Made by a program: the position numbers and the translations under genes. A stretch of DNA of 64,000 nucleotides from an uncultured Chlorobiota bacterium. GTDB lineage: Bacteria; Bacteroidota; Ignavibacteria; UBA10030; UBA6906. Below, in pieces: positions 3,812-48,798 of this stretch. Position 1 is the stretch's first letter; every line of letters begins with the position of its first letter. The stretch covers positions 64,912-128,911 of the forward strand of contig CAADGV010000024.1 of NCBI GenBank assembly GCA_900696645.1, read 5' to 3'. The notes beneath the pieces were generated by a model. That model saw nothing but the letters and a program-made list of their open reading frames with translations. It ran no database searches and was not told the DNA's origin.

Positions 3812-3854
3812 AAGTCTTGTTGATGGTTGAAGGAAATTGTCGAACTGATAGATG

Positions 3855-4547
3855 TTATTTCTTCGCGCCGCAATAAATCGTAACAATGCCGAATGTCAAT
3901 CTCTCCTCTTTCAACTCCGCAAATCCTACCTTCCGCAGGATGTTGAGAAAGTCATTTCCTTCGGGGAACTTCATCACTGTGTCCGGGAGATATGTGTAGG
4001 CTTCCTTGTGTCGGGAAACGATTCTGCCGACAAGCGGAAGAACCGACTTGAAATAGAAAAAATACAGTTGATTGAACGGAAACGTTCCCGGTCGTGAAAA
4101 CTCCAGCACAACAATTTTCCCTCCCGGACGGAGGATGCGGTTCATCTCCGCCAGGCCCTGCTCGAGATGCTCGAAGTTGCGAGCACCGAACGCAACAATC
4201 GCCGCGTCAAAGGAACCCGTCTCGAACCCGAGATGTTCGGCCTCGCCGGTTTGCAACGTAATCGTCGAGTCAAGCCCGCGCTTCTGCAGTTTCGCCCTGC
4301 CGATCTTCAGCATCTCTTCGGCAATATCAACCCCGATCACTTCCTGAGGGTTCAGCCGAAGCGTGGCGATGGCAAAATCTGCCGTTCCTGTTGCAACGTC
4401 GAGAATTCTTCTTGGCCGAATGTCCTTGAGATACTGCACCGCCCTGCGCCGCCAATAGAAATCAATTCCTCCGCTTAACAGGTGGTTGAGAAGATCGTAG
4501 CGATACGCGATAGAATCAAAAAGAGAACGGACGTACTGTTTTTCCAA
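3855..4547 (-). CDS. ubiE: demethylmenaquinone/ubiquinone C-methyltransferase UbiE/MenG
   Basis: SAM-MTase motifs ILDVATGTADFA, RPGGKIVVLEFS; N-terminus YDLLNHLLSGGIDFYWRR typical of UbiE; 230 aa. Confidence 0.8.
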   Translation of the reverse strand: MEKQYVRSLFDSIAYRYDLLNHLLSGGIDFYWRRRAVQYLKDIRPRRILDVATGTADFAIATLRLNPQEVIGVDIAEEMLKIGRAKLQKRGLDSTITLQTGEAEHLGFETGSFDAAIVAFGARNFEHLEQGLAEMNRILRPGGKIVVLEFSRPGTFPFNQLYFFYFKSVLPLVGRIVSRHKEAYTYLPDTVMKFPEGNDFLNILRKVGFAELKEERLTFGIVTIYCGAKK

Positions 4548-5778: not shown

Positions 5779-7232
5779 TGATTATTGTGTCGATAACGGG
5801 ACCCGGAATGAAGGATGCGCTTGGACAGATTGCCGCCTCATCTCAATATGCGGACATGTTCGAATTGCGTCTTGATATGATTCAGGAGCCGCCTCTCGGC
5901 ATGCTGATGGCGGCAACCGGCAAGCCGATTATTGCCACATGTCGACCTGATTGGGAGGGCGGTGAATTTCGTGAAACGGAATCAGAACGGGCCGAAATTC
6001 TTCATGCAGCAGCGGAACTCGGCGCAGCGTACGTTGATATTGAACTGAATGCAGATGCAGGAATTATACGCAGACTTCACGGCGACGGGCGTCGTCTCAT
6101 TCTCTCCTATCATCACAACGGGAAAGGCAAGCTTGATATAGCAAGAATGTACAGGCGCATGAAATCGCCTCACGCACATGTATTGAAGCTTGCATACACT
6201 GCGGAAGATTGTGCTGATATAAAGTACGCATTCGAGTTTCTCCAACTTGCCAAACAGGACAAGCAAAGAGCTATAGCTATTGCCATGGGAGAATTCGGCG
6301 AGCCGACGAGAATTCTCTACAAGAAATTCGGAGGATGGGCAACGTACGCATCGGCGGGTATTGGCCTAAGTGCCGCTGCCGGACAAATTCCCGCTGCCGA
6401 ATTGAGAGAACTGTATCGATCTGAAAGAATCTCCGGCAAGACAAAGGTCTTCGGAGTGGTCGGTAATCCGTTGAAGCAAAGTAAAGGTATTTACCTGCAC
6501 AATCCGCTTTATCAGAAAGCTAAGAAGGATGCCGTGTATTGCAGATTTCAAGTGAGGGATCTGAATTCGTACATGAAGCGTGTGGCGCCGGTGTTGAACG
6601 GTTTCAGTGTTACAATTCCTCACAAGCAATCGATCATCAAGTATCTGGATCGAATTGATCCGACAGCTAAAGCCATCGGTGCCGTGAATACAGTTATGCG
6701 CAAAGCGGGCAGGTTGTATGGAACAAACACGGACGCTCCGGGCGCTCTTGATGCCATAGAAAACGTACTGAAGGTCAAAGGAAAGAGCATGCTGATTGCC
6801 GGGGCCGGCGGAGCGGCTCGTGCAATTGCATATGAAGCAAAACAACGCGGAGCAAAGATTTTCTTGACTAACAGAACCGAATCAACAGGACGGAAACTTG
6901 CTACGGAATTCAACGTGGATTTTGTTTCAAAGACCGAGCTTCTTCGTGCCGCACGAAAGGGTGTACGATATGATATTATTGTCAACGCCACATCAGTAGG
7001 TATGACGCCGCATGTGAATGCATCACCTCTTCCCAAATCTATTCTCAAAAAGGCAATCGTGTTCGATGCAGTGTACAATCCTCCTATGACGAAATTGTTA
7101 CGGGATGCAAAGAATGCAGGCGCTATGATTGTTCAAGGGACAGAGATGTATTTCAATCAGGCGGCGCTGCAGTTTGAATTGTACGCGGGCGTGAAGCCCG
7201 GAATCTCAACAATGAGGAAAATCCTTTCATAA
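5778..7232 (+). CDS. bifunctional 3-dehydroquinate dehydratase (type I) / shikimate dehydrogenase fusion
   Basis: 484 aa; N half resembles type I DHQase; C half has shikimate dehydrogenase signatures (VVGNPLKQSKGIYLHNPLY, Rossmann GAGGAARAIAYEA); 4-nt overlap with aroB stop. Confidence 0.75.
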   Translation: MIIVSITGPGMKDALGQIAASSQYADMFELRLDMIQEPPLGMLMAATGKPIIATCRPDWEGGEFRETESERAEILHAAAELGAAYVDIELNADAGIIRRLHGDGRRLILSYHHNGKGKLDIARMYRRMKSPHAHVLKLAYTAEDCADIKYAFEFLQLAKQDKQRAIAIAMGEFGEPTRILYKKFGGWATYASAGIGLSAAAGQIPAAELRELYRSERISGKTKVFGVVGNPLKQSKGIYLHNPLYQKAKKDAVYCRFQVRDLNSYMKRVAPVLNGFSVTIPHKQSIIKYLDRIDPTAKAIGAVNTVMRKAGRLYGTNTDAPGALDAIENVLKVKGKSMLIAGAGGAARAIAYEAKQRGAKIFLTNRTESTGRKLATEFNVDFVSKTELLRAARKGVRYDIIVNATSVGMTPHVNASPLPKSILKKAIVFDAVYNPPMTKLLRDAKNAGAMIVQGTEMYFNQAALQFELYAGVKPGISTMRKILS

Positions 7233-7240
7233 GGCGGGAA

Positions 7241-7543
7241 ATGCTGAAACACATTGTCATGTGGAAGTTCAAGGAAACGGCGGAAAGGACAAGCAAAGAG
7301 GAGAATCTGCGGAAGGCAAAAGAGCTTCTTGACTTGCTGCCGTCGCAGATTCCTGCCATCGGCGGCTTTGAAGTCGGGATTGATATACTGCATTCCGACT
7401 CGTCTTACGATTTGGTATTGAATTCGTCTTTCAAAAACAGAGACGATCTTGTCGCATATCAGACGCATCCGTCGCATGTGAAAGTGGTCGAGTTTCTTCG
7501 CAAAGTGCAAATTGGGAAAGCCGTCGTTGATTACGTCGTGTAG
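7241..7543 (+). CDS. Dabb-family stress-responsive alpha+beta barrel protein
   Basis: 100 aa, MLKHIVMWKFKE...AYQTHPSHVKVVEF pattern of the Dabb (dimeric alpha/beta barrel) family; embedded inside the aro operon. Confidence 0.6.
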   Translation: MLKHIVMWKFKETAERTSKEENLRKAKELLDLLPSQIPAIGGFEVGIDILHSDSSYDLVLNSSFKNRDDLVAYQTHPSHVKVVEFLRKVQIGKAVVDYVV

Positions 7544-8806
7544 ATGATTCGAGAAATCCATCCATTGAGGAGGCCGGTCAATGCCGGTATTCACGTGCCC
7601 GGCTCGAAAAGCCTGACAAACAGGGCACTCATCTGCGCAGCTTTGGCGAAAGGCGAATCTACGCTCAACAATGCATCGGACAGCGACGATACATCGCTGA
7701 TGCGAAACGGGCTGAATCAGCTTGGCGTACTCGTTCGAAAGAAGGATGATACACTCATTGTCGAAGGCACGGGCGGGAAAGTGTACGCGCCCAAATTCCC
7801 CATTCCCGTCGGTAACGCGGGAACGACACTACGGTTTCTGCTCTCGTTAGCCGCGCTTGCCCCAGGTAAGACAGTTCTCGACGGGAGTGAGCGGATGGCT
7901 GCGCGTCCAATTGATGATTTGACGAGTTCCCTTGCGGCACTCGGCACGGAGGTCGGGTTCTCGCCTCATCAAGCACGCTACGTCGTAAATGGCGGCTCGT
8001 TCGTCGGTGGCAAAACTAAACTTGATGCCTCAAGAAGTTCTCAGTTTCTGTCGTCGCTGTTGATGGTGGCACCGTATGCAACCGAGGACGTACAAATCGA
8101 AGTGGCGGGAGAGATTTCTTCTGCTCCGTATGTTCAGCTCACGTTGCAGGTTATGCGTGAGTTCGGGGTGAATGTGGAGCATTTAGCAGGCGACTGCTTT
8201 GTGGTCAGGGCAGGCCAGAGATATATCCCGACATCATTTGCAGTAGAGGCGGATGCATCGAGCGCGACGTACTTCCTTGCGGCAGCGGCACTGTGTAGCG
8301 GAGACATCCTTGTAGAGGGTGTCAGACGTGATACGTTGCAAGCGGATGCAAACTTTGTCAACATATTGCATCAGATGGGATGTAGGATCGAGCATGAGGA
8401 AAGGGGCGTTAGACTCAATAGCAACGGACGGCTTCAGGGTGTTGATGTTAGCATGAATTCCATGCCCGATGCCGTGCCAACGCTTGTTGTAACAGCATTG
8501 TTCGCCGAAGGGACGACGCGTATCAGAAACATTTCCCATCTTCGTCATAAGGAATCTGACAGGCTTCATGCAATGGAGACTGAACTGAAAAAACTCGGCG
8601 CTGAAATCAGTGTGTATGATGATCGGGTAGATATCAATCCCTCGATATTGTCGGGTGGTGTTCTGGATACGTACGATGATCATCGTTTGGCGATGGCCTT
8701 CGCGCTAATCGGTTTGAAGGTAGATGGCGTAAAGATAGATAATCCGGCTTGCGTGAGGAAATCTTTTCCGCAATTCTGGACGGAATTCGACAAGCTATAC
8801 TGTTAA
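7544..8806 (+). CDS. aroA: 3-phosphoshikimate 1-carboxyvinyltransferase (EPSP synthase)
   Basis: VPGSKSLTNRALICAALA N-terminal signature, 420 aa, contiguous with aroC. Confidence 0.9.
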   Translation: MIREIHPLRRPVNAGIHVPGSKSLTNRALICAALAKGESTLNNASDSDDTSLMRNGLNQLGVLVRKKDDTLIVEGTGGKVYAPKFPIPVGNAGTTLRFLLSLAALAPGKTVLDGSERMAARPIDDLTSSLAALGTEVGFSPHQARYVVNGGSFVGGKTKLDASRSSQFLSSLLMVAPYATEDVQIEVAGEISSAPYVQLTLQVMREFGVNVEHLAGDCFVVRAGQRYIPTSFAVEADASSATYFLAAAALCSGDILVEGVRRDTLQADANFVNILHQMGCRIEHEERGVRLNSNGRLQGVDVSMNSMPDAVPTLVVTALFAEGTTRIRNISHLRHKESDRLHAMETELKKLGAEISVYDDRVDINPSILSGGVLDTYDDHRLAMAFALIGLKVDGVKIDNPACVRKSFPQFWTEFDKLYC

Positions 8807-8812
8807 AAAGAC

Positions 8813-10168
8813 ATGGCTGGAAACACATACGGAACACAATTCAGAATCACAACGTTTGGCGAAAGCCACGGCCGTGCAATCGGCGTTGTTATGGATGGCG
8901 TACGGCCCGGACTGCCGATTGATACGGATTTCATTCAGAAGGAACTCGATCGTCGCCGCCCCGGACAAAGCAAGGTCACAACTGCGCGCAATGAGTCTGA
9001 TGCAGTTGAAATTCTCAGCGGGGTATTTGAAGGAAAAACTACCGGCACGCCGATCTGCATGATCATCTGGAACAAAGACCAGCAGTCAAAGCCGTATGAA
9101 AAGATCAAGGAGTTGTTTCGTCCCGGTCATGCCGGATACACGTATCTCGCCAAGTACGGAGTAAGCGATTATCGGGGCGGCGGACGTTCATCAGGCAGGG
9201 AAACAGCATCGCGGGTTGCCGCGGGAGCTGTTGCCAAATCTCTCCTCGCGAAGCGGGGCATTCATATTCTTGCGTACACAAAAGAAGTCGCGGGCATCGG
9301 AGGTCGAAGGATCAATCCCGACTTCATCGAGAAGAATCCACTTCGCGCCGCCGATCCTGAAGCAGCAAGAAAAATGGAGCGCAAAATCTTACAAGCGAAA
9401 ACAGACGGCGACTCGGTCGGCGGAATTGTTGAAATAATTGTGAAGAATGTTCCCGTCGGGCTCGGCGAGCCGGTGTTCGACAAGCTCGAAGCAGATCTCG
9501 CGAAAGCGCTTATGTCGATCGGGGCGATCAAGGGATTTGAAGTAGGGAATGGCTTTGAGGCTGCGCGCCTAAACGGGAGTGAGAACAACGACTCGATGTA
9601 TTTCGATAAGAAATCCCGTCGTGTACGCACAAGAACAAACAATGCCGGCGGTATTTCCGGTGGCATTTCCAACGGCGAAGACATTGTTCTGCGAATCGCC
9701 GTTAAACCTCCATCATCCATCCTCAAGAAACAGCGAACAGTCACGGTGAAAGGAAGGGCAGCGACAATTTCCGTTGAAGGCCGCCACGATCCGTGCATCT
9801 GTCCCCGCGTAGTGCCCGTTGCCGAATCAATGGTAGCCCTCACGCTACTCGACCATCTTACCCGCCAACAAATCTTGAGAAGCAAAACGACCTTGCAGGC
9901 GTTGAGGGATGATATCGATCTGCTTGACCATAACATCCTTTTGTTGATTGCCGAGCGGCAGAGATTTGTCGAGCAGGTTGGAATTCTGAAAAAGAAAAAA
10001 GGCAGGAACATTCACGATGCAGGGCGTGAGAAACAGATTCTTGCAAAACAGCTTGCTGCAGGCACCGCACTCGGGCTGGACCAAGAATTCGTGAGAGAAA
10101 TTTGTTCGGCTATCTTCAATCTTGCAAAATCGACACAGCGAAAGCTCAACGCCGGCTTGTTGAAGTAA
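8813..10168 (+). CDS. aroC: chorismate synthase fused to a C-terminal AroQ-type chorismate mutase domain
   Basis: N-terminal MAGNTYGTQFRITTFGESHGRAIG matches AroC; last ~90 aa (LQALRDDIDLLDHNILLLIAERQRFVEQVGILKKKKG...REKQIL) match the AroQ chorismate mutase helix pattern; 451 aa vs ~360 for AroC alone. Confidence 0.85.
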   Translation: MAGNTYGTQFRITTFGESHGRAIGVVMDGVRPGLPIDTDFIQKELDRRRPGQSKVTTARNESDAVEILSGVFEGKTTGTPICMIIWNKDQQSKPYEKIKELFRPGHAGYTYLAKYGVSDYRGGGRSSGRETASRVAAGAVAKSLLAKRGIHILAYTKEVAGIGGRRINPDFIEKNPLRAADPEAARKMERKILQAKTDGDSVGGIVEIIVKNVPVGLGEPVFDKLEADLAKALMSIGAIKGFEVGNGFEAARLNGSENNDSMYFDKKSRRVRTRTNNAGGISGGISNGEDIVLRIAVKPPSSILKKQRTVTVKGRAATISVEGRHDPCICPRVVPVAESMVALTLLDHLTRQQILRSKTTLQALRDDIDLLDHNILLLIAERQRFVEQVGILKKKKGRNIHDAGREKQILAKQLAAGTALGLDQEFVREICSAIFNLAKSTQRKLNAGLLK

Positions 10169-23879: not shown

Positions 23880-24797
23880 ATGGGCGTTCTCATGCTCTTT
23901 CTCGATGGGGTGGGGATTGGTACAGCGGATGCCTCGGTCAATCCTTTCTTTCAAGCAGAGCTTCCTTCGTTTCGCTCGTTGCTCGGCGGTGAACTGCCCG
24001 GCTTGAATCTTCCGTTTCTGCAAAACGGCACCGCCTCACTCATCCCTCTTGATCCCAACCTTGGAATTGAAGGACTTCCGCAAAGCGGAACAGGACAAAC
24101 CGCCCTTTTCACGGGAGTCAACGCCCCGCAGTTGATAGGAAAACATTTCGGCCCGTATCCCTACTCAACATTGCGTCCGGTTGTGCGGGAGAGGAACATC
24201 TTTCGCCAACTGATTGATGCCGGCAAGAGGGTGTATTTCGCCAACGCCTATCCGCAACGCTTCTTCGATTACTTCAAGGACAAGCAAACACGTCTCACCG
24301 TCACAACGCTATCGTGCAGCTATTGTGACATGCCGCTTCATCAGGCTACAGAGCTTGAAAAGGGCGTCGCCATTTCAGCCGACATTACGAACGCGGGGTG
24401 GCCGCGCATGGGATATTCTCACATTCTTCGCATAGAACCTGCCGAGGCCGGACGAAGACTCGTGCGCCTTTGCGCTGAATATGATTTCGTCCTGTTTGAG
24501 TATTGGAGAACTGACAAGGCGGGACATTCGGAAAAAATGAGTGAGGCCGTTGAGTCGCTTGAAGCCTTCGACGGAATGTTATGTGGCATTCTTGAATCAA
24601 TTGATACAGCAAGAACACTGCTGCTCATCACGAGTGACCACGGCAATATCGAGGACATGTCGACAAAGGTACATACGCGTAATCCTGTTCCTGTAATGTT
24701 GTTCGGCTGCCGTCATAACGAGGTTGCAAAGGCGTTGCAAGAGAAACCCGATCTTACGAGCGTTACGCCGGCGCTCATGCAGTATTTCGTTACTTAA
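23880..24797 (+). CDS. alkaline-phosphatase-superfamily metalloenzyme (short iPGM/phosphopentomutase-like)
   Basis: LFLDGVGIG N-terminus and ITSDHGN metal-binding motif of the PF01676-type metalloenzyme fold, 305 aa. Confidence 0.55.
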   Translation: MGVLMLFLDGVGIGTADASVNPFFQAELPSFRSLLGGELPGLNLPFLQNGTASLIPLDPNLGIEGLPQSGTGQTALFTGVNAPQLIGKHFGPYPYSTLRPVVRERNIFRQLIDAGKRVYFANAYPQRFFDYFKDKQTRLTVTTLSCSYCDMPLHQATELEKGVAISADITNAGWPRMGYSHILRIEPAEAGRRLVRLCAEYDFVLFEYWRTDKAGHSEKMSEAVESLEAFDGMLCGILESIDTARTLLLITSDHGNIEDMSTKVHTRNPVPVMLFGCRHNEVAKALQEKPDLTSVTPALMQYFVT

Positions 24798-29993: not shown

Positions 29994-30980
29994 TTGCTAA
30001 TCAGGCGCGCTTTCTGTAAATTTGTTCGGTTTTTTACTTCCTCAAAGTCAAATCGGAGAGATCAATTGGGTGTACTCGTTGTTGGTTCTGTTGCGTTGGA
30101 TTCAATAGAAACGCCGTTCGGCTCTGCAAAAAATGCTCTCGGTGGCTCTGCTACATATATTGCTGCCGCGGCAAGTTACTTCACTGCGCCCATCCGGCTT
30201 GTGGGAGTGGTTGGGGGAGATTTCCCCAAATCGGGAATGGAGTTCCTCGAATCACGTGGCATTGATCTGGACGGCCTCGAAGTAGTGAAAGAAGGGAAGA
30301 CATTTCATTGGGCCGGAAAATATCACTACGACCTCAACAATCGTGACACGCTTGCGACACATTTGAATGTGTTCGAAAAGTTCAATCCGAAAATCCCGGA
30401 GAAGTACAAGAAGAGCAGGTATGTCTGCCTGGGGAATATCGATCCCGTGTTGCAGCGGCGTGTGCTTGAGCAGATTGACAAGCCGCGTCTTGTCATTTGC
30501 GACACGATGAACTTCTGGATTGAGGGGAAGAATGCCGAGTTGAAGAAAACTCTCGAACTGATCGATGTGATTGTGCTGAACGATTCGGAGGCGCGCCTGC
30601 TTTCGCGAGAACCCAATCTGATCAAGGCGGCACGCGTCATACGGGCAATGGGTCCGAACATCGTGATCATCAAAAAAGGTGAACATGGCGCAATGCTGAT
30701 AACCGAGCAAACGATCTTCACAGCGCCGGCCTATCCGATGGAAAATATCTTTGATCCGACGGGAGCAGGCGATACATTCGCGGGAGGATTTGTCGGGTGG
30801 CTGGGCAAGACAGATGATTTTTCGGAAGAGAATTTGAAACGCGCCGTCATTTACGGCAGCGCAATGGCATCATTCTGTGTTGAGAAGTTCAGTGTAGAAG
30901 GGCTGGCAGATCTCACATACCTTCAGGTTCAGGATCGGTTCCGGGCATTTCGAGAACTCTCCCGTTTCGACGGCGACTGA
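29994..30980 (+). CDS. PfkB-family carbohydrate/nucleoside kinase
   Basis: ribokinase-fold motifs (GGSATYIAAAAS, DPTGAGDTFAGGFV); true start may be the in-frame TTG at 30066 (LGVLVVGS). Confidence 0.7.
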   Translation: MLIRRAFCKFVRFFTSSKSNRRDQLGVLVVGSVALDSIETPFGSAKNALGGSATYIAAAASYFTAPIRLVGVVGGDFPKSGMEFLESRGIDLDGLEVVKEGKTFHWAGKYHYDLNNRDTLATHLNVFEKFNPKIPEKYKKSRYVCLGNIDPVLQRRVLEQIDKPRLVICDTMNFWIEGKNAELKKTLELIDVIVLNDSEARLLSREPNLIKAARVIRAMGPNIVIIKKGEHGAMLITEQTIFTAPAYPMENIFDPTGAGDTFAGGFVGWLGKTDDFSEENLKRAVIYGSAMASFCVEKFSVEGLADLTYLQVQDRFRAFRELSRFDGD

Positions 30981-31004
30981 CACATCTTATTCGGAGACCA
31001 CACG

Positions 31005-32090
31005 ATGGTATCGGTTGAGTGGCGCAACGGCGTTGTTCGCTTCATCGATCAGACAAAACTCCCTCACGAAGAAGTATACGTTGAAACATCGGACTATCGC
31101 GTAGTAGGGGAGGCGATCCGCAAGCTTCAGATTCGAGGGGCGCCTGCCATCGGGGTTGCTGCTGCATACGGACTGGTTCTCGTGGCGCATGCAAGTTCCG
31201 TAACGACGATGCAGGAGTTGTCCGAAGAATTCTACTCTGCCATTAACTACTTCTCTCAAACTCGTCCCACAGCGGTCAATCTTTTCGGTGCCCTTGAGCG
31301 AGTCCGCCGGACATTCGATCTGAATGCTCGAGCGGAAATACCCGACATACGGCGATATCTGCTCAATGAAGCAAAGATGATGCAGGAAGAAGATGCTGAT
31401 GCCTGCAGGAAGATAGGAGAATTCGGCGCAGGCCTGATCCAGATTCCCTCTTCAATACTCACACATTGTAACACCGGCGCGCTTGCAACCACCGGCAGCG
31501 GCACGGCGCAAAGCGTGATTACGACTGCGGCAAAGCAGGGCAACGTCCTCCGTGTGTTTGCTGATGAGACACGCCCGCTTTTCCAGGGTTCCCGGTTGAC
31601 GGCGTGGGAATTGCTTCGTGCAGGCATTGACGTTACCGTGATAACAGACGGTACGGCAGGACTGCTGATGCAAAACCGTGAAGTTGATTTGGTGATTGTC
31701 GGCGCCGACCGGATTGCTGCGAACGGAGACACAGCCAACAAGATCGGGACCTACGTTCTTGCCGTTCTTGCACGCCAACACGGAGTTCCATTTTATGTTG
31801 CTGCCCCGACAACAACCATTGACTTCAAATCACGCAACGGCAGGAACATACCGATTGAGGAGCGCGACCCAAGAGATGTGACGCACATAGGCAATCTGCG
31901 AATTGCTGCCGAAGGTGTGGGGGTCTTTGCGCCTGCCTTTGATGTTACCCCGAACGAATTCATTCATGGGATTGTTACAGAAGTAGGCGTGCTGCGGCCT
32001 CCGTTTGTCAAATCCATTGCAGCGCTGCGAACAGATGGCGGAGCACCCGATGGGAACCAGCCCGCCGTACCGAGAGGGCAACGAGCATAG
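31005..32090 (+). CDS. eIF-2B alpha/beta/delta family isomerase (MtnA-like: methylthioribose-1-P or ribose-1,5-bisP isomerase)
   Basis: VRFIDQTKLPHEEVYVE N-terminus, RGAPAIGVAAAYG, GADRIAANGDTANKIGTY blocks typical of MtnA/e2b2 proteins, 361 aa. Confidence 0.75.
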   Translation: MVSVEWRNGVVRFIDQTKLPHEEVYVETSDYRVVGEAIRKLQIRGAPAIGVAAAYGLVLVAHASSVTTMQELSEEFYSAINYFSQTRPTAVNLFGALERVRRTFDLNARAEIPDIRRYLLNEAKMMQEEDADACRKIGEFGAGLIQIPSSILTHCNTGALATTGSGTAQSVITTAAKQGNVLRVFADETRPLFQGSRLTAWELLRAGIDVTVITDGTAGLLMQNREVDLVIVGADRIAANGDTANKIGTYVLAVLARQHGVPFYVAAPTTTIDFKSRNGRNIPIEERDPRDVTHIGNLRIAAEGVGVFAPAFDVTPNEFIHGIVTEVGVLRPPFVKSIAALRTDGGAPDGNQPAVPRGQRA

Positions 32091-32094
32091 CGAC

Positions 32095-32859
32095 ATGATT
32101 GTCAAGACAGAAGGTATTGTTCTTTCCAAAATGAAATACCGGGATACGAGCAAGATCCTTCGCTTGTACACTCGTGAGTTTGGCAAAGTATCCGTCATTG
32201 CAAAAGGGGCTCGTGAAACGAAAAGCAAATTCAGGGCTGCCCTTGAGCCGATGAACCATGTTGCATGCGTTATTTACAGGAAAGACAACCGGGACTTGCA
32301 GCTGCTGTCGCAATGTGATGTCATAACCCCGTTTCGCCATCTGTCGGAAGATATGGGGAAAATGCGGGTAGGCCTTTCCGTCGTTGAGCTGGTGGATATT
32401 GCAAGCCATGCAGAGGAGGGGAATGAGATTTTGTTTTCATTGCTTGTTGATGTTCTGCAGACAGTCAACTCTGCAACAAAAAACCCCGTTTCTGCGTTAT
32501 ATTACTTTGAAATGAAGTTGTCAGGCATTATGGGGTTCAATCCTCAACTCGAACGTTGCGTGCACTGCAATGCCGGAATTCCGAATGGTTTGGAGGAAAC
32601 CGGAAGATGTGTCATCACGCATGACGGGATTCTTTGCAATAATTGCTCGGACAATACCGGGCGCAAAGGTATTTCGGCCTCCGCGGTACGCTCGCTGCAA
32701 CAGATGCAACGCGCTACAACTTCAGAGTCAGTGTTGCATATGAACCTGTCACCGTTAGTGAATGAAGAAGTGCAATGTTCGTTGCTTCGTCACTTGCAGC
32801 ATCATATTGAAGGATTTCGAGGACTTCGTTCCGAGGAGGTGTTTGCAACACTTTTGTAA
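32095..32859 (+). CDS. recO: DNA repair protein RecO
   Basis: OB-fold N-terminus (TEGIVLSKMKYRDTSKILRLYTREFGK), C-terminal zinc motif CVHCN...CNNC; start at ATG 32095. Confidence 0.75.
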   Translation: MIVKTEGIVLSKMKYRDTSKILRLYTREFGKVSVIAKGARETKSKFRAALEPMNHVACVIYRKDNRDLQLLSQCDVITPFRHLSEDMGKMRVGLSVVELVDIASHAEEGNEILFSLLVDVLQTVNSATKNPVSALYYFEMKLSGIMGFNPQLERCVHCNAGIPNGLEETGRCVITHDGILCNNCSDNTGRKGISASAVRSLQQMQRATTSESVLHMNLSPLVNEEVQCSLLRHLQHHIEGFRGLRSEEVFATLL

Positions 32860-32918: not shown

Positions 32919-34445
32919 ATGACGAAGAAATCAGTTTTTGTATCGCTGTTCCTGATTACCATCGGGATCATCTTCGGTGCGTTACTTGTGTCGAATTCCG
33001 GCTTGGGTGTTGGTCCGGGCGTTGCAGGCAGCAAGGACGACATCAAGCTTGGTGCGGCGGCTCCGCCCGTGGTGAACAATGTGGATCTTAAGGCCGCGAG
33101 CAACAACTTTACTGCTGTCTCAAAGGCAGTGACGCCGACCGTTGTGTCCATCACCGTAACGACAACAGCCCGCGGTGACCGCGGTGGTATGCCGCAGGAC
33201 TTCTGGCATTTTTACGGCCCGGAGCGACGTGAATCTCCGCGATCACAAGGGGCGGGATCGGGAGTTATTGTCACCGCTGACGGTTATATCGTGACCAACA
33301 ACCATGTGGTCGAGAATGCCGATCCGAACGGCATTAAGGTTCTGCTTGATAATCAGAAGGCAACATATGATGCAAAGTTGATCGGTACCGATCCGACAAC
33401 TGATCTTGCCGTCATCAAGATTGAAGGCAAGGACTTTCCGGTTGCAGCCCTCGGCAACTCCGAGAATGTGCAGGTTGGTGAATGGGTACTTGCTATTGGC
33501 AATCCTTTGGGCTTGACCTCCACCGTTACGGCCGGAATTGTCAGCGCGTTGGGCCGCAACATTCGCATCATCAATGACCAGTACGGTATCGAAAACTTCA
33601 TTCAAACCGATGCTGCCATCAATCCGGGCAACAGCGGTGGCGCCCTGGTAAACATGAACGGCGAAGTTATTGGCATCAACACTGCCATCGCCACGACGAA
33701 TATGCGATATCAGGGATACGGCTTTGCTGTTCCGATCAATATCGTCAAAACCGTTGCTATGGATCTGATTCAGGACGGAAAGATCCGCCGAGGATATATC
33801 GGCGTTACGATTCGTGCGGTAGATCAGACAATGGCGAACGCTATCGGGTTGGATAGGGCGCGGGGAGTCTTGGTGAATGAACTGCGCAAAGGCGGCGCAG
33901 CCGAAACTGCCGGCATTAAGCCGGGCGATGTCATTCTCTCCATCGACGACAAGGAAGTGAATGAGCCGAATGAATTGCAGAGCTATATCGCAACTAAGCG
34001 TGCAGGCGTTGTTGTCGCCCTGAAGATTTTCCGGGACGGCAAGAACATCGAACGAAAAGTCACGCTGAAAGAACTTGAGGAGGAGAAGACAACAGTCAAA
34101 GCATCCGACAAAAAGGAAGAAGCCGACAGGGGGAGTGAACGAAAGCCATCGGTTGTCACATTCGACAAGTTGGGGATGACGGTTCGCCCGATGACCCAGG
34201 AAGAGAAGAAGGTAAGCGAAACGGAAAACGGCGTTATCGTGTCGGAAGTAACCCGCTTCAGTGAGGCGTCGAACCAGGGTATTGCAGAAAATGATATCAT
34301 CATCGAAGCTGATAGGAAGAGCATCAGTAGTCCGTCCGAGTTTCAAAAATTGGTGGATGCAAAGAAACCCGGCGATGCATTACTTCTGCGAGTAAAGAAG
34401 CAGCAAGGCGTATCAATGTATATTGCAGTTCAGATTCCCAGATAG
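32919..34445 (+). CDS. htrA: HtrA/DegP-family periplasmic serine protease with two PDZ domains
   Basis: trypsin-like catalytic motifs (TNNHVV, DLAVIKI, GNSGGALVN), two PDZ-like segments, 508 aa, TM anchor. Confidence 0.85.
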   Translation: MTKKSVFVSLFLITIGIIFGALLVSNSGLGVGPGVAGSKDDIKLGAAAPPVVNNVDLKAASNNFTAVSKAVTPTVVSITVTTTARGDRGGMPQDFWHFYGPERRESPRSQGAGSGVIVTADGYIVTNNHVVENADPNGIKVLLDNQKATYDAKLIGTDPTTDLAVIKIEGKDFPVAALGNSENVQVGEWVLAIGNPLGLTSTVTAGIVSALGRNIRIINDQYGIENFIQTDAAINPGNSGGALVNMNGEVIGINTAIATTNMRYQGYGFAVPINIVKTVAMDLIQDGKIRRGYIGVTIRAVDQTMANAIGLDRARGVLVNELRKGGAAETAGIKPGDVILSIDDKEVNEPNELQSYIATKRAGVVVALKIFRDGKNIERKVTLKELEEEKTTVKASDKKEEADRGSERKPSVVTFDKLGMTVRPMTQEEKKVSETENGVIVSEVTRFSEASNQGIAENDIIIEADRKSISSPSEFQKLVDAKKPGDALLLRVKKQQGVSMYIAVQIPR

Positions 34446-34468
34446 CTCAACATCCCTGCATTCTGACG

Positions 34469-34502
34469 AAAGCCCCGGCGGTAACGCCGGGGCTTTTCGT
34501 TT
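34469..34502 (+). terminator. rho-independent terminator after htrA
   Basis: 12-bp GC-rich stem aaagccccggcg/cgccggggcttt with gtaa loop followed by a T-rich run. Confidence 0.6.
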
Positions 34503-34543
34503 GTGGTACACGAAAGAGGCTTGCAGCTTAAACCTCATGTTGC

Positions 34544-34572
34544 TTGACAATCCTTCCCTTTAGTGCTATATT
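34544..34572 (+). promoter_or_regulatory. consensus sigma70 promoter TTGACA-17-TATATT upstream of the HNH gene
   Basis: perfect -35 hexamer, 17-nt spacer, TATATT -10; predicts a ~95-nt leader before ATG 34674. Confidence 0.5.
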
Positions 34573-34673: not shown

Positions 34674-35177
34674 ATGAACGCAAAAGTTCTGATCTTAAAT
34701 CAGAATTACGAGCCAATGAGTGTGATTAACGTGAAGAAGGCAATCATCCTGTTGTATCTCGGGAAAGCGGAATTGATCGAAGCGTACGACGGACGGGCCG
34801 TACATTCCGTGTCGACCACGATGCCCTTTCCAAGCATCGTGAAGTTGTCGTTCTATGTCAAAGTCCCGTTCAAGCGAATCATTCTCTCGCGGAAAAACAT
34901 CCTCCGGCGTGACGGACACAGATGCCAGTATTGCGGCCGGGGTGACCTGACGCTCACACTCGATCATGTGTGGCCGGTTTCCCGTGGAGGCGAAGACGCC
35001 TGGGAGAATCTCGTCTGCGCATGCGTGAAGTGTAACAACAAGAAGGGCGACCGGACTCCGGATGAAGCCGGCATGCCGTTGTTGCGCAAACCCATGAGGC
35101 CGAATCACGTCTCGTTCATCAGCCACTTTGTCGGAAGGATGGATGAACGATGGAAGCCGTATCTCTTTCTCCAATAA
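34674..35177 (+). CDS. stand-alone HNH endonuclease family protein
   Basis: HNH motif with zinc ligands (CQYCG...LDHVWPVSRGG..WENLVCACVKCNNKK), 167 aa. Confidence 0.7.
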   Translation: MNAKVLILNQNYEPMSVINVKKAIILLYLGKAELIEAYDGRAVHSVSTTMPFPSIVKLSFYVKVPFKRIILSRKNILRRDGHRCQYCGRGDLTLTLDHVWPVSRGGEDAWENLVCACVKCNNKKGDRTPDEAGMPLLRKPMRPNHVSFISHFVGRMDERWKPYLFLQ

Positions 35178-46659: not shown

Positions 46660-48798
46660 ATGAGACTTTCTGACAAAATGAAAACCATCAACACGGTCTT
46701 TGCGGTTCACAATCATCAACCCATCGGCAATTTTGAGAAGGTGTTTGAGGAAGCATATCAACATTCCTACAAACCATTCCTTGATGTTCTTTCAGGGCAT
46801 CCAGCAATCAAGATCACGCAGCATTGGACCGGAACGCTGCTTGAATGGCTTGTTGCGAAGCATCCCGAGTTGGTTGAGAAGATGAGGGAAATGGTGAAGC
46901 GCGGGCAGTTGGAACTGCTGACCGGCTCGTACTATGAGGCGATTCTTGCCATCATTCCCGAATCTGACCGGATCGGGCAGATCAATAAACTCTCGGACTA
47001 TATCCATAAAATCTTCGATTACGAACCGCGGGGAATGTGGCTCGCCGAACGGGTCTGGGAACAGCAGCTTGTTGCTTCGTTAGCGAAAGCCGGCGTTGAG
47101 TTTGTGACTGTTGACGATACCCATTTCCGTCACGTTGGGTTGCATGATGAGGAATTGCTCGGCTACTACATCACGGAAGAGCAAGGGCAAACGCTACGTG
47201 TTCTGCCGATCGACAAAATGTTGCGCTACACGGTTCCATTTCGACCGCTCGAAGAGACATTACATTATCTCCAAAACGTCTCGTTCGAGAACGGCATGCG
47301 AGTCGTCATCAACGCCGATGATGGAGAGAAGTTCGGCGTGTGGCCCAAAACCTATGACACAGTGTACACGAACGGCTGGCTTGAATCTTTCTGCAAGATG
47401 GTTGAAGAGAATGCGTGGATCAGAATGCTGCATCTTTCCGACGTTGTCGACACATTTCCGCCGCAAGGAAGAATTTATCTTCCAACGGCTTCATACCCCG
47501 AGATGTTGAAATGGGCGCTGAACCCCACGGCATTTCTTCAGCTCGAAAATTTTGAAAGGGAGCTGAAGGAACGTCATCACGACGAAGAACATATGATGTT
47601 CGTTCGGGGAGGATATTGGAGAAATTTTCTGGCAAAATACCCCGAATCGAATCACATGCACAAGAAAATGCTGCGCATTGCTAAACGTGCCGAGAGATTG
47701 TCCGGCAAACAGCTATTGCCGCAGGATGTTCTCGACAATATCTGGGCCGGACAGTGCAATGATCCGTACTGGCACGGCGTATTCGGCGGATTGTACTTGC
47801 CGAACCTGCGGTTTCCCGTGTACCGGAGTCTGCTTCAAGCAGAAAGCAAACTCGATGCAATAGAGAAACTCCCTCCGATCAGAGTGGAAGAATCAGACTT
47901 TGATTGTGACGGAATGAATGAAATTCTGCTCGAATCAGATATTATGAATTTGTATTTCAAGCCTGAAGTTGGAGGGAGTCTCGTCGAATTCGATTACAAA
48001 CCTGCCGCATTCAATCTTCTCGATATTCTCAGCAGAAGGGAGGAAGGCTATCACCGCCGCCTGATGGCGCAGGGCGGCAAGTTAGAAGACGCGGCGAATA
48101 TCCATGACAGTGTGCTGGTAAAGGAGTTAGGACTCGAGAATCATCTGCACTTCGACTGGTACCGTCATGCTTCGCTGATTGATCATTTTTTCGGCCCAGA
48201 TACGACACTCGAGCAATATGCACAATGCAAGTATCTTGAGTTGGGGGATTTCGTCAACCAACCGTACACGCACAAAGTTTCTGTTGGAAAAGACGGAGTC
48301 AAGATAACGATGAGACGAGACGGGGCGTTGTGGTTTGGCGAGAAACCTCACCGCATAACTGTCCAGAAAGTTGTGACGGTTAAGAAAGGAGATTCGGGAT
48401 TCACAGTTGATTATACGATATCGAACCGCGAGCAGAATGCTGTTGATATCTGGTTCGGGGCAGAGTTTTGCGTCGGCATGATGGCGGGCGATGCACATGA
48501 TCGCTACTACGAAATCGAAAAGCGGCCACTTGAGGATAAGCGGCTTCGGAGTACCGGCGTGGAAGAGAATGTCAAACGCTTCGGGCTGGTTGATGAATGG
48601 CTCGGCATAGAGACGACATTTGTGCTAAAGCAACCTGCCGCCTTGTGGCGTCATCCAATTGAGACAGTCTCACTCTCCGAAGCCGGATTCGAGCGGATCT
48701 ACCAATGCTCGGTTGTCACGCCAACGTGGAAGACGACGCTGTTGAAGGAAGTAAAATATCAGGTCGTCCAGAAAGTGAGGTTGTTGAGTCCCGCATGA
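46660..48798 (+). CDS. glycoside hydrolase family 57 enzyme (alpha-amylase / 4-alpha-glucanotransferase type)
   Basis: N-terminal FAVHNHQP GH57 signature, conserved acidic residues in the (beta/alpha)7 barrel, 712 aa. Confidence 0.7.
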   Translation: MRLSDKMKTINTVFAVHNHQPIGNFEKVFEEAYQHSYKPFLDVLSGHPAIKITQHWTGTLLEWLVAKHPELVEKMREMVKRGQLELLTGSYYEAILAIIPESDRIGQINKLSDYIHKIFDYEPRGMWLAERVWEQQLVASLAKAGVEFVTVDDTHFRHVGLHDEELLGYYITEEQGQTLRVLPIDKMLRYTVPFRPLEETLHYLQNVSFENGMRVVINADDGEKFGVWPKTYDTVYTNGWLESFCKMVEENAWIRMLHLSDVVDTFPPQGRIYLPTASYPEMLKWALNPTAFLQLENFERELKERHHDEEHMMFVRGGYWRNFLAKYPESNHMHKKMLRIAKRAERLSGKQLLPQDVLDNIWAGQCNDPYWHGVFGGLYLPNLRFPVYRSLLQAESKLDAIEKLPPIRVEESDFDCDGMNEILLESDIMNLYFKPEVGGSLVEFDYKPAAFNLLDILSRREEGYHRRLMAQGGKLEDAANIHDSVLVKELGLENHLHFDWYRHASLIDHFFGPDTTLEQYAQCKYLELGDFVNQPYTHKVSVGKDGVKITMRRDGALWFGEKPHRITVQKVVTVKKGDSGFTVDYTISNREQNAVDIWFGAEFCVGMMAGDAHDRYYEIEKRPLEDKRLRSTGVEENVKRFGLVDEWLGIETTFVLKQPAALWRHPIETVSLSEAGFERIYQCSVVTPTWKTTLLKEVKYQVVQKVRLLSPA

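What the first reader, a model, noticed from the sequence alone, without database searches (positions are those of the whole stretch)
29994..32090. PfkB kinase directly upstream of an eIF2B/MtnA-family isomerase: methionine salvage or pentose-bisphosphate route
MtnA normally partners with MtnK, which has a different kinase fold. Here it is preceded instead by a ribokinase-fold PfkB kinase. That pairing (PfkB ribose-1-phosphate kinase plus e2b2-family ribose-1,5-bisphosphate isomerase) is what defines the archaeal-type nucleoside pentose-bisphosphate pathway feeding form III RuBisCO. It also occurs in 5-deoxyribose disposal shunts. The isomerase therefore may not be a true methylthioribose-1-P isomerase.
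Basis: partly seen in the sequence, partly recalled or inferred. Interest (0 to 1): 0.5.

Follow-up and report, generated by a model that had tools for sequence, protein, structure and literature searches.

The report
MtnA isomerase beside an unassigned PfkB kinase
The two genes are real and probably co-transcribed, but the isomerase is an ordinary methylthioribose-1-phosphate isomerase rather than an archaeal-type ribose-bisphosphate isomerase, and the kinase belongs to a widespread, uncharacterised ribokinase-like family that repeatedly sits next to methylthioadenosine-salvage and purine genes.

Summary
A PfkB kinase (30066-30980, 304 aa; the listed ORF starts at 29994) lies 24 nt upstream of an eIF2B/MtnA-family isomerase (31005-32090). 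recO and htrA follow tightly, and a strong terminator comes after htrA.

The pentose-bisphosphate reading is not supported. The isomerase passes the curated MtnA model and fails the ribose-1,5-bisphosphate isomerase model. It carries the MtnA motif THCNTG, not the C-x-S-K-A 5-phosphate site. The kinase passes no ribose-1-phosphate kinase, ribokinase or other equivalog model. No RuBisCO, AMP phosphorylase, MtnP or class II aldolase was found in the 64 kb, and the rest of the genome could not be read.

The kinase belongs to a conserved orthologous family with no published function. Its solved member is PDB 3KD6, titled "nucleoside kinase" from Chlorobium tepidum. Across 162 related loci:
- mtnA lies directly downstream in 52/75 Ignavibacteria-type loci.
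- A bona fide mtnP lies directly upstream in 42/53 Nitrospirota/Acidobacteria/Deltaproteobacteria-type loci.
- purM is adjacent in 10 loci and fused to the kinase in Gemmatimonadota.

My best reading is a ribofuranosyl 5-kinase, most likely a purine nucleoside (adenosine) kinase, working alongside MTA salvage. Ribose-1-phosphate kinase or an MtnK replacement remain possible. Interest is moderate.

The parts
30066..30980 (+). PfkB (ribokinase-fold) kinase of an uncharacterised orthologous subfamily (PDB 3KD6 family), 304 aa. The mechanical ORF starts at 29994.
   Evidence: PF00294, E 6.5e-30. No NCBIfam equivalog cutoff is reached. 3KD6 scores 432 bits, 61% identity, TM 0.93. Homologues are about 304 aa. 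TTG start with an upstream GGAGAG. The GG, NxxE and DPTGAGD motifs are invariant across 162 orthologues.
31005..32090 (+). MtnA-type S-methyl-5-thioribose-1-phosphate isomerase (eIF2B-related family), 361 aa
   Evidence: TIGR00512 427 bits against cutoff 279. TIGR00511 (R15P isomerase) 217 bits against cutoff 314. Best PDB matches are 1T9K, 6A34 and 2YRF, all MtnA. The catalytic Cys (THCNTGALAT) and Asp (GADRIA), and the Asn-Lys pair, are conserved.
32095..32859 (+). recO, 4 nt after mtnA. It belongs to the same tightly packed gene string and is not thought to be functionally related.
   Evidence: RecO_N and RecO_C Pfam hits starting at residue 31 of ORF 32005-32859. ATG at 32095. It follows mtnA in 45 related loci.
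32919..34445 (+). htrA/degP-type serine protease, the last gene of the string
   Evidence: Identified by eye from the translation. It is conserved after recO in 39 related loci.
34468..34497 (+). Terminator-like hairpin (13-bp stem, 9 G-C pairs, T-rich tail) that closes the kinase-mtnA-recO-htrA unit
   Evidence: It is much the strongest + strand terminator-like site between 29000 and 34700; the other two (31537-31549 inside mtnA, 5-bp stem; 32960-32979 inside htrA, 7-bp stem) each have only 3 G-C pairs. A near-consensus promoter-like site follows at 34544-34572.
29994..30024 (+). TTG-N20-TAAATTTG, a match to the Bacteroidetes-type promoter pattern upstream of the 30066 start. This is weak evidence.
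   Evidence: Only 2 such matches occur on the + strand of the window. However, only 1 of 40 gene starts has TAnnTTTG upstream, so the motif is not clearly used by this organism.

Best explanation
The window carries an ordinary MtnA. This enzyme isomerises methylthioribose-1-phosphate, and probably 5-deoxyribose-1-phosphate, to the ribulose-1-phosphate form. It appears to be co-transcribed with a ribokinase-fold kinase in a kinase-mtnA-recO-htrA string that is typical of Ignavibacteria-like bacteria.

The kinase belongs to one conserved orthologous family. The family occurs in Ignavibacteria-type genomes, Chlorobiaceae, Rhodothermales, Gemmatimonadota, Nitrospirota, Acidobacteria, Deltaproteobacteria/Desulfobacterota, Calditrichota and Chloroflexota. 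Its substrate has never been established.

I propose that it phosphorylates the 5-hydroxyl of an uncharged ribofuranosyl compound. The most likely substrate is a purine nucleoside such as adenosine, formed from S-adenosylhomocysteine, or inosine. On this view it works in parallel with MtnP and MtnA to recycle the nucleoside by-products of S-adenosylmethionine and to feed the purine nucleotide pool. It is not a step between MtnP and MtnA.

Shown: the gene identities, the family memberships, the conserved neighbourhoods and the fusion. Inferred: co-transcription, the kinase substrate and the physiological role.
For: Isomerase is MtnA-type:
- It passes the curated MtnA cutoff and fails the R15P isomerase cutoff.
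- Its PDB ranking places it among MtnA enzymes.
- It has the THCN[TA]G motif, as do nearly all of the 52 kinase-linked isomerases; 4 read THCHTG.

The kinase is linked to MTA and purine salvage:
- mtnA lies directly downstream in 52/75 genome loci, with a median gap of 21 nt.
- mtnP lies directly upstream in 42/53 metagenome loci, and in L072, L074, L079 and L081.
- That phosphorylase passes the MTAP equivalog TIGR01694, at 309-332 bits against a cutoff of 275.
- purM lies downstream in 10 loci. A 669-aa kinase-PurM fusion occurs in 8 full-length copies on independent contigs.
- rdgB, a purine nucleoside phosphorylase, maf and miaA are other recurrent neighbours.

One family: mtnA-linked and mtnP-linked kinases are 53% identical on average, with a minimum of 44%. 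The nearest characterised structures are only 17-23% identical.

Nucleoside-kinase-like character:
- The only solved member is titled 'Nucleoside kinase from Chlorobium tepidum in complex with AMP'.
- With a family profile, the best characterised PDB relative over the full length is the M. jannaschii nucleoside kinase MJ0406, at 94 bits.
- The nearest folds are ribokinase, nucleoside, pseudouridine and aminoimidazole-riboside kinases.
- No Arg or Lys is invariant in the substrate/lid half. The invariant lid residues are aromatic (F80, W82, Y86). This fits an uncharged substrate better than a sugar phosphate.

A kinase is chemically unnecessary between MtnP and MtnA, because MtnP already makes the 1-phosphate (established pathway knowledge; PMC5893883).
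Against: - No member of the kinase family has a published assay. The 'nucleoside kinase' title comes from an unpublished structural-genomics deposit, and I could not see where the AMP sits.
- The substrate-binding half resembles no characterised kinase convincingly. Scans of the N-terminal half gave only weak hits that differed between members. For the window protein the top two were, weakly, the two R1P-kinase models (21.6 and 12 bits).
- Both neighbourhoods are embedded in longer conserved strings of housekeeping genes: recO-htrA, and mutL-miaA-hfq...TPR-rodZ. Part of the adjacency may therefore be inherited synteny rather than functional coupling.
- The gene order phosphorylase-kinase and kinase-isomerase mirrors the haloarchaeal nucleoside phosphorylase / R1P kinase / R15P isomerase operon.
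- The rest of this genome could not be inspected. Whether it has mtnP, mtnN, ahcY or another adenosine kinase is unknown.
Confidence: 0.42

Rival explanations
1. A bacterial pentose-bisphosphate-type route. An MTAP-family phosphorylase makes ribose-1-phosphate from nucleosides. The PfkB kinase converts it to ribose-1,5-bisphosphate. In Ignavibacteria-like genomes the adjacent MtnA-clade isomerase makes ribulose-1,5-bisphosphate. Alternatively the bisphosphate goes to PRPP.
For: - The gene order is phosphorylase-kinase in 42/53 loci and kinase-isomerase in 52/75 loci. This is colinear with the haloarchaeal operon of nucleoside phosphorylase, PfkB R1P kinase and R15P isomerase (PMC9700705).
- The Thermococcus adenosine and guanosine phosphorylases are listed among that pathway's enzymes. 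That they belong to the MTAP family is from my own recollection.
- One archaeal R1P kinase also accepts cytidine and uridine, so nucleoside and R1P kinases lie close together.
- A purine nucleoside phosphorylase is also encoded near the kinase in several loci.
- The N-terminal half of the window kinase hits the two R1P-kinase models weakly.
- The authors of PMC9700705 expect unidentified bacterial R1P kinases.
Against: - The isomerase fails the R15P isomerase model and passes the MtnA model. It lacks the Ser-Lys-Ala 5-phosphate site. At the position expected for Lys240 it has the MtnA-typical APTTTID (this mapping rests on conserved spacing from the Asp/Asn-Lys anchor).
- The kinase is far below both R1P-kinase cutoffs.
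- No Arg or Lys is invariant in the kinase's substrate half.
- No RuBisCO, AMP phosphorylase, RuBP phosphatase or aldolase was found in the window or in any of the 162 loci.
- The kinase-PurM fusion and the stand-alone kinase in Chlorobiaceae are not explained.
Confidence: 0.18
2. Non-orthologous replacement of MtnK. The PfkB kinase phosphorylates methylthioribose and/or 5-deoxyribose at O1. It would supply MtnA in organisms that cleave MTA and 5'-deoxyadenosine with a nucleosidase.
For: - The kinase-mtnA pairing is tight and conserved, with a median gap of 21 nt.
- The invariant lid residues are hydrophobic or aromatic.
- The window encodes a futalosine-pathway gene (PF02621). Organisms using that pathway often carry an MTA-type nucleosidase (my own knowledge).
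- PfkB-fold enzymes can phosphorylate an anomeric hydroxyl, as in HldE/RfaE domain I (my own knowledge; a weak hit to that model appears).
- No MtnK or MtnP was seen near mtnA.
Against: - In most non-Ignavibacteria relatives the same orthologous kinase sits directly after MtnP, which already yields the 1-phosphate. An MTR kinase would be redundant there.
- The purM fusion and the purine-gene neighbours are not explained.
- The nearest characterised relatives are 5-OH kinases.
- The kinase also occurs in lineages with no mtnA within 10 kb.
Confidence: 0.12
3. There is no functional link. The kinase is a housekeeping sugar kinase with an unrelated substrate, and its position beside mtnA or mtnP reflects inherited gene order within two large clades.
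For: - Both pairs lie in long conserved strings of unrelated housekeeping genes: Nudix-kinase-mtnA-recO-htrA-aroC, and mutL-miaA-hfq-mtnP-kinase-TPR-rodZ.
- TPR and rodZ are nearly as conserved downstream as mtnP is upstream, in 34 and 27 loci.
- Other lineages show quite different neighbours: an LsrF-like aldolase plus Zn-dehydrogenase, folB, or an amylase with a symporter.
Against: Two different enzymes of the same short pathway, mtnP and mtnA, are the immediate neighbours in two separate clades. A third clade has adjacency and fusion with purM. That is unlikely if the positions were functionally neutral.
Confidence: 0.15

Closest known systems
Canonical methionine-salvage entry steps (MtnP, or MtnN+MtnK, then MtnA)
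   Same: The isomerase is an MtnA by curated model, by structure-sequence ranking and by active-site motif. Relatives of the kinase sit next to a bona fide MtnP.
   Different: No MtnK-fold kinase is present, and a PfkB kinase has no assigned step in this pathway. No MtnB/C/D, MtnP or MtnN was found in the window.
Non-carboxylating and carboxylating pentose-bisphosphate pathways of Halobacteria and Thermococcales (nucleoside phosphorylase, PfkB R1P kinase, R15P isomerase)
   Same: The same three protein superfamilies are involved: phosphorylase, PfkB kinase and an eIF2B-related isomerase. The relative gene order is also the same.
   Different: The isomerase here belongs to the MtnA clade, not the e2b2/R15P isomerase clade. 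The kinase is not a member of either R1P-kinase family. The phosphorylase and the isomerase are never found together beside the kinase. No RuBisCO, RuBP phosphatase or Ru1P aldolase was seen.
PDB 3KD6, 'nucleoside kinase' from Chlorobium tepidum (structural genomics, no paper found)
   Same: It is an orthologue of the window kinase: 61% identity, full-length alignment, 432 bits, and TM 0.93 to the predicted model.
   Different: In Chlorobiaceae the gene is not next to mtnA or mtnP. Its neighbours there are an amylase-family gene, a sodium:solute symporter, maf and miaA.
Methanocaldococcus jannaschii nucleoside kinase MJ0406 (PDB 2C49) and other ribokinase-like riboside kinases
   Same: It is the best characterised relative of the family profile over the full length (94 bits). 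It shares the fold and the GG, NxxE and GAGD motifs.
   Different: Identity is only about 22%. The lid segment T79-F80-x-W82-x-G84-x-Y86 and the D146-T-M-N-x-W151 motif are family-specific.
5-Deoxyribose disposal cluster DrdK-DrdI-DrdA and the DHAP shunt
   Same: Both use an MtnA-family isomerase acting on a 5-substituted ribose-1-phosphate.
   Different: Those clusters use an MtnK or MTAP homologue and always include a class II aldolase. Here the kinase has the PfkB fold and no aldolase is nearby.

Membership tests
MtnA / M1Pi (S-methyl-5-thioribose-1-phosphate isomerase, TIGR00512) | Score above the curated equivalog cutoff | tested here: met
   426.8 bits against cutoff 279. NF004326 gives 440 bits against cutoff 271.
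MtnA / M1Pi | Catalytic Cys and Asp (B. subtilis Cys160/Asp240) in the motifs T-x-C-N-[AT]-G and G-A-D-R-I | tested here: met
   THCNTGALAT and VGADRIAANGDTANKIGTY align with the same motifs in 1T9K, 6A34 and 2YRF. THCN[TA]G is kept in nearly all of the 52 kinase-linked orthologues; 4 read THCHTG. The B. subtilis residue numbers are from my own recollection.
MtnA / M1Pi | Isomerase activity on MTR-1-P, and a genomic source of MTR-1-P (MtnP, or MtnN+MtnK) | not testable with these tools
   Only 64 kb of the genome is available. No mtnP, mtnN or mtnK was found in it.
Ribose-1,5-bisphosphate isomerase (e2b2, TIGR00511) | Score above the curated equivalog cutoff | tested here: not met
   217.1 bits against cutoff 314.1. 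Solved R15P isomerases score 168-150 bits, against 347-296 bits for MtnA structures.
Ribose-1,5-bisphosphate isomerase | 5-phosphate site: Ser137, Lys138 and Ala139 after the catalytic Cys135, plus Lys240 (P. horikoshii numbering, PMC5789824) | tested here: not met
   The window has C-N-T-G-A after the Cys. At the spacing expected for Lys240 it has APTTTID, as the MtnA structures do. The Lys240 position was mapped by conserved spacing, not by a direct alignment to an R15P isomerase sequence.
Pentose-bisphosphate pathway (system level) | Co-occurring form III RuBisCO or RuBP phosphatase/Ru1P aldolase, and AMP or nucleoside phosphorylase | tested here: inconclusive
   None was found in the window or in the 162 related loci. 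The rest of the genome is not available.
Ribose-1-phosphate kinase (NF053626 ATP-dependent; NF041134 ADP-dependent) | Score above the curated equivalog cutoff | tested here: not met
   69.4 bits against 330, and 26.9 bits against 500. The N-terminal half alone gives 21.6 and 12 bits.
Ribokinase (TIGR02152) | Score above the cutoff, and the ribose ligands Asn14, Lys43 and Asn46 (E. coli numbering, from my own recollection) | tested here: not met
   70.7 bits against 299.65, matching the C-terminal half only. By my own motif mapping the corresponding positions are A10, S28 and Y31.
PfkB superfamily (PF00294) | Pfam gathering score, di-Gly motif, NxxE motif, and the DPTGAGD anion hole with catalytic Asp | tested here: met
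   104.9 bits against 25.8. G26-G27, N172/E175 and D230-D236 are at least 98% conserved in 162 orthologues.
MtnK (methylthioribose kinase, protein-kinase-like fold) and the DrdK/DrdI/DrdA cluster | Kinase homologous to MtnK, with a class II aldolase in the cluster (PMC6079011) | tested here: not met
   The only Pfam domain in the kinase is PfkB. No class II aldolase was found in the window or the loci.
3KD6 subfamily of PfkB kinases | Full-length orthology to 3KD6 and the family motifs (TF-W-G-Y lid segment, D146-T-M-N-x-W151) | tested here: met
   432 bits across residues 2-302. TM 0.91-0.93. The motifs are conserved.
Adenosine / purine nucleoside kinase (function) | ATP-dependent 5'-phosphorylation of adenosine or other purine ribosides | not testable with these tools
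   Support is indirect only: the 3KD6 title, the MJ0406 profile hit, the neighbourhoods and the PurM fusion.

The most novel reading that the evidence does not exclude
The kinase is the missing bacterial ribose-1-phosphate 5-kinase, or alternatively a PfkB-fold methylthioribose/5-deoxyribose 1-kinase. Together with an MTAP-type phosphorylase and an MtnA-clade isomerase it would form a previously unrecognised, RuBisCO-independent pentose-bisphosphate-like or MTA-disposal route. That route would be spread across Ignavibacteria-type genomes, Nitrospirota, Acidobacteria, Gemmatimonadota and other phyla.
Probability: 0.2. Interest if true: 0.7.

Novelty: new member of a known kind. Interest (0 to 1): 0.4.

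Why it matters
The isomerase itself is routine. The kinase matters more. It belongs to a family with thousands of members in at least eight bacterial phyla, conserved at 43-97% identity among the 162 sampled orthologues. A crystal structure has existed since 2009, yet I found no published function for it.

Its repeated placement beside mtnP or mtnA, and its fusion to purM, gives a concrete and cheap hypothesis to test. Cultured hosts are available: Melioribacter, Ignavibacterium and Chlorobaculum tepidum.

Each possible outcome would be informative:
- Adenosine or purine nucleoside kinase: this fills a gap in how bacteria that use SAH hydrolase and MTA phosphorylase recycle adenosine.
- Ribose-1-phosphate or methylthioribose kinase: this would be the first bacterial example of a step so far known only from archaea, or a new analogue of MtnK.

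The result also warns against annotating MtnA-family genes as R15P isomerases from gene context alone.

Tried and rejected
- **R15P isomerase identity of the isomerase.** Rejected on curated HMM cutoffs, PDB ranking and 5-phosphate-site residues.
- **Direct alignment to a Thermococcus R15P isomerase sequence.** Not possible. The PDB tool prints only the five best alignments, all of them MtnA, and PMC3375503 is not held. I used published residue numbers instead.
- **Nudix hydrolase as a shared third partner.** A Nudix gene precedes the kinase in about 40 Ignavibacteria loci and in L081. The two Nudix groups are not detectably orthologous, and the window lacks one. I dropped this lead.
- **Family assignment of the kinase's N-terminal half.** The hits were weak and differed between members.
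- **Literature.** No paper mentions 3KD6, a PfkB-MtnA pairing, or a Chlorobium nucleoside kinase.
- **AlphaFold-database fold search.** The library was not available.
- **Bacteroidetes-type promoter upstream of the kinase.** There is one match, but the motif is not generally found upstream of genes in this window.
- **P0388, a 662-aa 'fusion'.** Its C-terminal part has no domain hit and looks like a mis-called gene, so I ignored it.
Full report
**Observation**

ORF 29994-30980 is a PfkB-family kinase (PF00294, E 6.5e-30). ORF 31005-32090 is an eIF2B-related isomerase (PF01008, E 2.6e-89).

Nearly all close homologues of the kinase are about 304 aa. That length corresponds to the TTG at 30066, which is preceded by GGAGAG. 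I therefore place the gene at 30066-30980.

The kinase stop and the isomerase start are 24 nt apart, with a GGAGA in between. The isomerase stop (TAG, 32088-32090) is followed 4 nt later by the ATG of recO. An htrA-type protease gene comes next.

After htrA there is a 13-bp G+C-rich hairpin with a T-rich tail at 34468-34497. It is much the strongest terminator-like site on this strand between 29000 and 34700. The only other + strand sites, at 31537-31549 inside mtnA and 32960-32979 inside htrA, have 5- and 7-bp stems with 3 G-C pairs each. A near-consensus promoter-like site follows the strong hairpin. The four genes therefore look like one transcription unit. This is an inference from spacing, not a demonstration.

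**The isomerase**

Against NCBIfam the protein scores 426.8 bits on the MtnA equivalog TIGR00512, whose cutoff is 279. It scores 440 bits on NF004326, whose cutoff is 271. On the ribose-1,5-bisphosphate isomerase equivalog TIGR00511 it scores only 217.1 bits, below the cutoff of 314.1.

Among solved structures the best matches are MtnA-type:
- Thermotoga maritima (1T9K), 347 bits.
- Pyrococcus horikoshii PH0702 (6A34), 315 bits.
- Bacillus subtilis (2YRF), 299 bits.
- 1T5O, deposited as eIF2B subunit delta but in my reading an MtnA-like protein, 296 bits.

The Thermococcus and Pyrococcus R15P isomerases score 168-150 bits.

The residue-level alignments show the catalytic cysteine in THCNTGALAT and the catalytic aspartate in VGADRIAANGDTANKIGTY, as in the three MtnA structures.

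The crystallographic description of P. horikoshii R15P isomerase gives these ligands (PMC5789824):
- The 5-phosphate is held by the side chains of Ser137 and Lys240.
- It is also held by the backbone of Ala24, Gly25, Lys138 and Ala139.
- Cys135 and Asp204 are catalytic.
- Asn214 and Lys215 bind the sugar and the 1-phosphate.

In the window protein the Asp, Asn and Lys have the same spacing (D235, N245, K246). The residues after the cysteine are Asn-Thr-Gly-Ala rather than x-Ser-Lys-Ala. At the spacing expected for Lys240 the sequence is AAPTTTID, the same P-x-[ST]-[ST]-x-D stretch seen in the MtnA structures. The Lys240 mapping rests on spacing, because I could not obtain an R15P isomerase sequence for direct alignment.

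Nearly all of the 52 isomerases that follow an orthologous kinase in other genomes keep THCN[TA]G; four read THCHTG. I conclude that the isomerase is an MtnA-type enzyme.

By established knowledge of this family it would act on MTR-1-P. As shown for DrdI and other homologues, it would probably also act on 5-deoxyribose-1-phosphate (PMC6079011).

**The kinase**

It passes no NCBIfam equivalog:

| Model | Score (bits) | Cutoff (bits) |
|---|---|---|
| Ribokinase | 70.7 | 300 |
| Haloarchaeal ATP-dependent R1P kinase | 69.4 | 330 |
| Thermococcales ADP-dependent R1P kinase | 26.9 | 500 |

Most of these matches cover only the ATP-binding C-terminal half.

The one close solved structure is 3KD6, at 432 bits over the full length. 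A predicted model (pLDDT 84.8) superposes on 3KD6 with TM 0.91-0.93. The entry title is 'Crystal structure of nucleoside kinase from Chlorobium tepidum in complex with AMP'. No paper mentions it.

The next structural neighbours, at 17-23% identity, are ribokinases, the M. jannaschii and Burkholderia nucleoside kinases, pseudouridine kinase and aminoimidazole riboside kinase. A profile of 82 diverse family members ranks the M. jannaschii nucleoside kinase MJ0406 first among characterised proteins, at 94 bits over the full length. E. coli YdjH comes next. M. tuberculosis adenosine kinase reaches 51 bits.

The family is large. In the 50%-identity representative library, 891 representatives match at E <= 1e-30.

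**Neighbourhoods of the kinase family**

A scan of one genome per species returned 80 loci. A metagenome scan seeded with the Nitrospirota-type kinase returned 80 more. Two further loci came from exact look-ups.

The 162 kinases form one family:
- Pairwise identity is never below 43%.
- mtnA-linked and mtnP-linked members are 53% identical on average.

Three contexts dominate.

1. **mtnA downstream.** In Ignavibacteria-like genomes, including Melioribacter, Ignavibacterium and Kryptoniota, mtnA follows the kinase directly in 52 of 75 loci with enough downstream sequence. The median gap is 21 nt. The pair sits inside a string: large protein, Nudix, kinase, mtnA, recO, htrA, chorismate synthase, metallo-beta-lactamase.

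2. **mtnP upstream.** In Nitrospirota-, Acidobacteria- and Deltaproteobacteria-type loci a phosphorylase precedes the kinase directly in 42 of 53 metagenome loci with enough upstream sequence. The same holds in L072, L074, L079 and L081.
   - This phosphorylase passes the MTAP equivalog TIGR01694, at 309-332 bits against a cutoff of 275.
   - The surrounding string is often mutL, miaA, hfq, (Nudix), mtnP, kinase, a TPR protein, rodZ.
   - A purine nucleoside phosphorylase sometimes lies further downstream.

3. **purM downstream.** In Gemmatimonadota-type loci purM follows the kinase in 10 loci, overlapping it by 4 nt in L077. A 669-aa kinase-PurM fusion exists in at least eight full-length copies on independent contigs from four data sources.

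mtnP and mtnA never flank the same kinase gene.

Minor contexts are:
- rdgB downstream (L067, L076).
- folB downstream (Rhodothermales, Salinibacteraceae).
- An LsrF-like DhnA-family aldolase plus a zinc dehydrogenase upstream (L082, L085, L087, L122).
- In Chlorobiaceae: an amylase-family gene, then the kinase, a sodium:solute symporter, maf and miaA.

**What the kinase most likely does**

Three points guide the choice.

First, the chemistry of the known pathway leaves no place for a kinase between MtnP and MtnA. MtnP already produces the 1-phosphate that MtnA isomerises. An MtnK-like role would also be redundant in the many genomes where the kinase is paired with MtnP.

Second, every recurrent neighbour with a defined function handles purine nucleosides or nucleotides, or their SAM-derived relatives. 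These neighbours are MtnP, MtnA, PurM, a purine nucleoside phosphorylase, RdgB and Maf. The fusion with PurM ties the kinase to the purine nucleotide pool.

Third, the family's conserved positions in the substrate/lid half are Asp12, the di-glycine, and aromatic or hydrophobic residues (F80, W82, Y86). No arginine or lysine is invariant there. This fits an uncharged riboside better than a sugar phosphate. It is only an argument from sequence, because I could not obtain model coordinates.

These points agree with the depositors' title for 3KD6 and with the profile hit to MJ0406. Together they make a purine nucleoside kinase the best-supported reading, with adenosine the most likely substrate. 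Such an enzyme would remove adenosine released by SAH hydrolase. I give this whole explanation a confidence of about 0.4.

**Rivals**

In haloarchaea a PfkB gene forms operons with R15P isomerase and a nucleoside phosphorylase, and it encodes an ATP-dependent R1P kinase. The authors suspect unidentified R1P kinases in bacteria (PMC9700705).

The gene orders found here, phosphorylase-kinase and kinase-isomerase, are colinear with that pathway. For this reason I keep the rival at about 0.18. Against it stand the MtnA identity of the isomerase, the missed R1P-kinase cutoffs, and the absence of any RuBP-consuming enzyme in the sequence I could read.

An MtnK replacement, meaning a methylthioribose or 5-deoxyribose 1-kinase, would fit the Ignavibacteria pair on its own. 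It does not fit the MtnP-linked or PurM-fused orthologues. I put it at about 0.12.

Both pairs sit inside longer strings of housekeeping genes. A purely historical gene order therefore cannot be dismissed, and I put it at about 0.15. Even so, having two enzymes of the same two-step segment as immediate neighbours in two different clades is hard to credit as coincidence.

**Limits**

- Only 64 kb of this genome is available. No RuBisCO, AMP phosphorylase, MtnP, MtnN, MtnK, MtnB/C/D, class II aldolase or Apt was found in it.
- Those negatives say little about the genome as a whole.
- The organism is an uncultured Ignavibacteria-like member of the Bacteroidota/Chlorobiota group, judging from the names of its closest relatives.

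**Novelty and interest**

The isomerase is an ordinary MtnA. The kinase is a new member of an already crystallised but functionally unassigned PfkB subfamily. I found no literature on the pairing with mtnA or mtnP, or on the PurM fusion.

The finding is moderately interesting, at 0.4. The pairing it noticed does, however, point to a widespread kinase whose role in methylthioadenosine and purine nucleoside salvage can be settled with simple enzyme assays.

Noticed in passing
P0300 and cluster members P0394-P0402 (not in the window); loci L077, L139, L142, L145, L150-L152, L154, L156, L161: A 669-aa fusion of the orthologous PfkB kinase with PurM (AIR synthetase). At least 8 full-length copies lie on independent Gemmatimonadota-type contigs. 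In 10 loci kinase and purM are separate adjacent genes, with a 4-nt overlap in L077.
   Followed up: partly
L082:4153-5998, also L085, L087, L122: An LsrF-like DhnA-family aldolase/thiolase (NF006081, 358 bits against cutoff 297) and a zinc alcohol dehydrogenase sit directly upstream of the orthologous kinase in a Deferribacteres-like clade. This could mark a different substrate or pathway context for the same family.
   Followed up: partly
Loci L003-L066, directly upstream of the kinase (e.g. L003:9303-9929); L081:4635-5033: A Nudix hydrolase precedes the kinase in about 40 Ignavibacteria-type loci. It is weakly NudB-like, at 53 bits against a cutoff of 103. An unrelated ADP-ribose-pyrophosphatase-like Nudix precedes mtnP-kinase in L081. 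The window has no Nudix gene here, and SpoU is the upstream neighbour.
   Followed up: partly
window 2975-3886 (-) and 3855-4547 (-): A futalosine-pathway menaquinone gene (PF02621, MqnA/MqnD family) lies next to a UbiE/MenG methyltransferase. Organisms with this pathway often carry an MTA-type nucleosidase. This bears on where methylthioribose might come from.
   Followed up: partly
window 4678-10168 (+): A run of shikimate-pathway genes: aroB, an aroD/aroE-like fusion, aroA and aroC. They were identified by eye from the translations. In most related Ignavibacteria loci a chorismate synthase gene instead follows htrA downstream of the kinase-mtnA pair.
   Followed up: no
window 34468-34572 and 34674-35177 (+): A strong terminator-like hairpin is followed by an 11/12 sigma-70-type promoter match with an extended TG. 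Both lie just upstream of a small HNH endonuclease gene that is inserted between htrA and trpS.
   Followed up: no
window 29994-30024 (+): TTG-N20-TAAATTTG matches the Bacteroidetes promoter pattern 42 nt upstream of the probable kinase start. The motif is otherwise rare upstream of genes in this window (1 of 40).
   Followed up: yes
window 46660-48798 (+): A GH57-family alpha-amylase/4-alpha-glucanotransferase with all three characteristic domains. Separately, an amylase-family gene is the upstream neighbour of the orthologous kinase in Chlorobiaceae.
   Followed up: no
window 23880-24797 (+): A metalloenzyme-superfamily protein (PF01676). It reaches no phosphoglycerate mutase or phosphopentomutase cutoff, and only its C-terminal part matches. 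The ORF start is unclear, because it overlaps a minus-strand ORF.
   Followed up: partly
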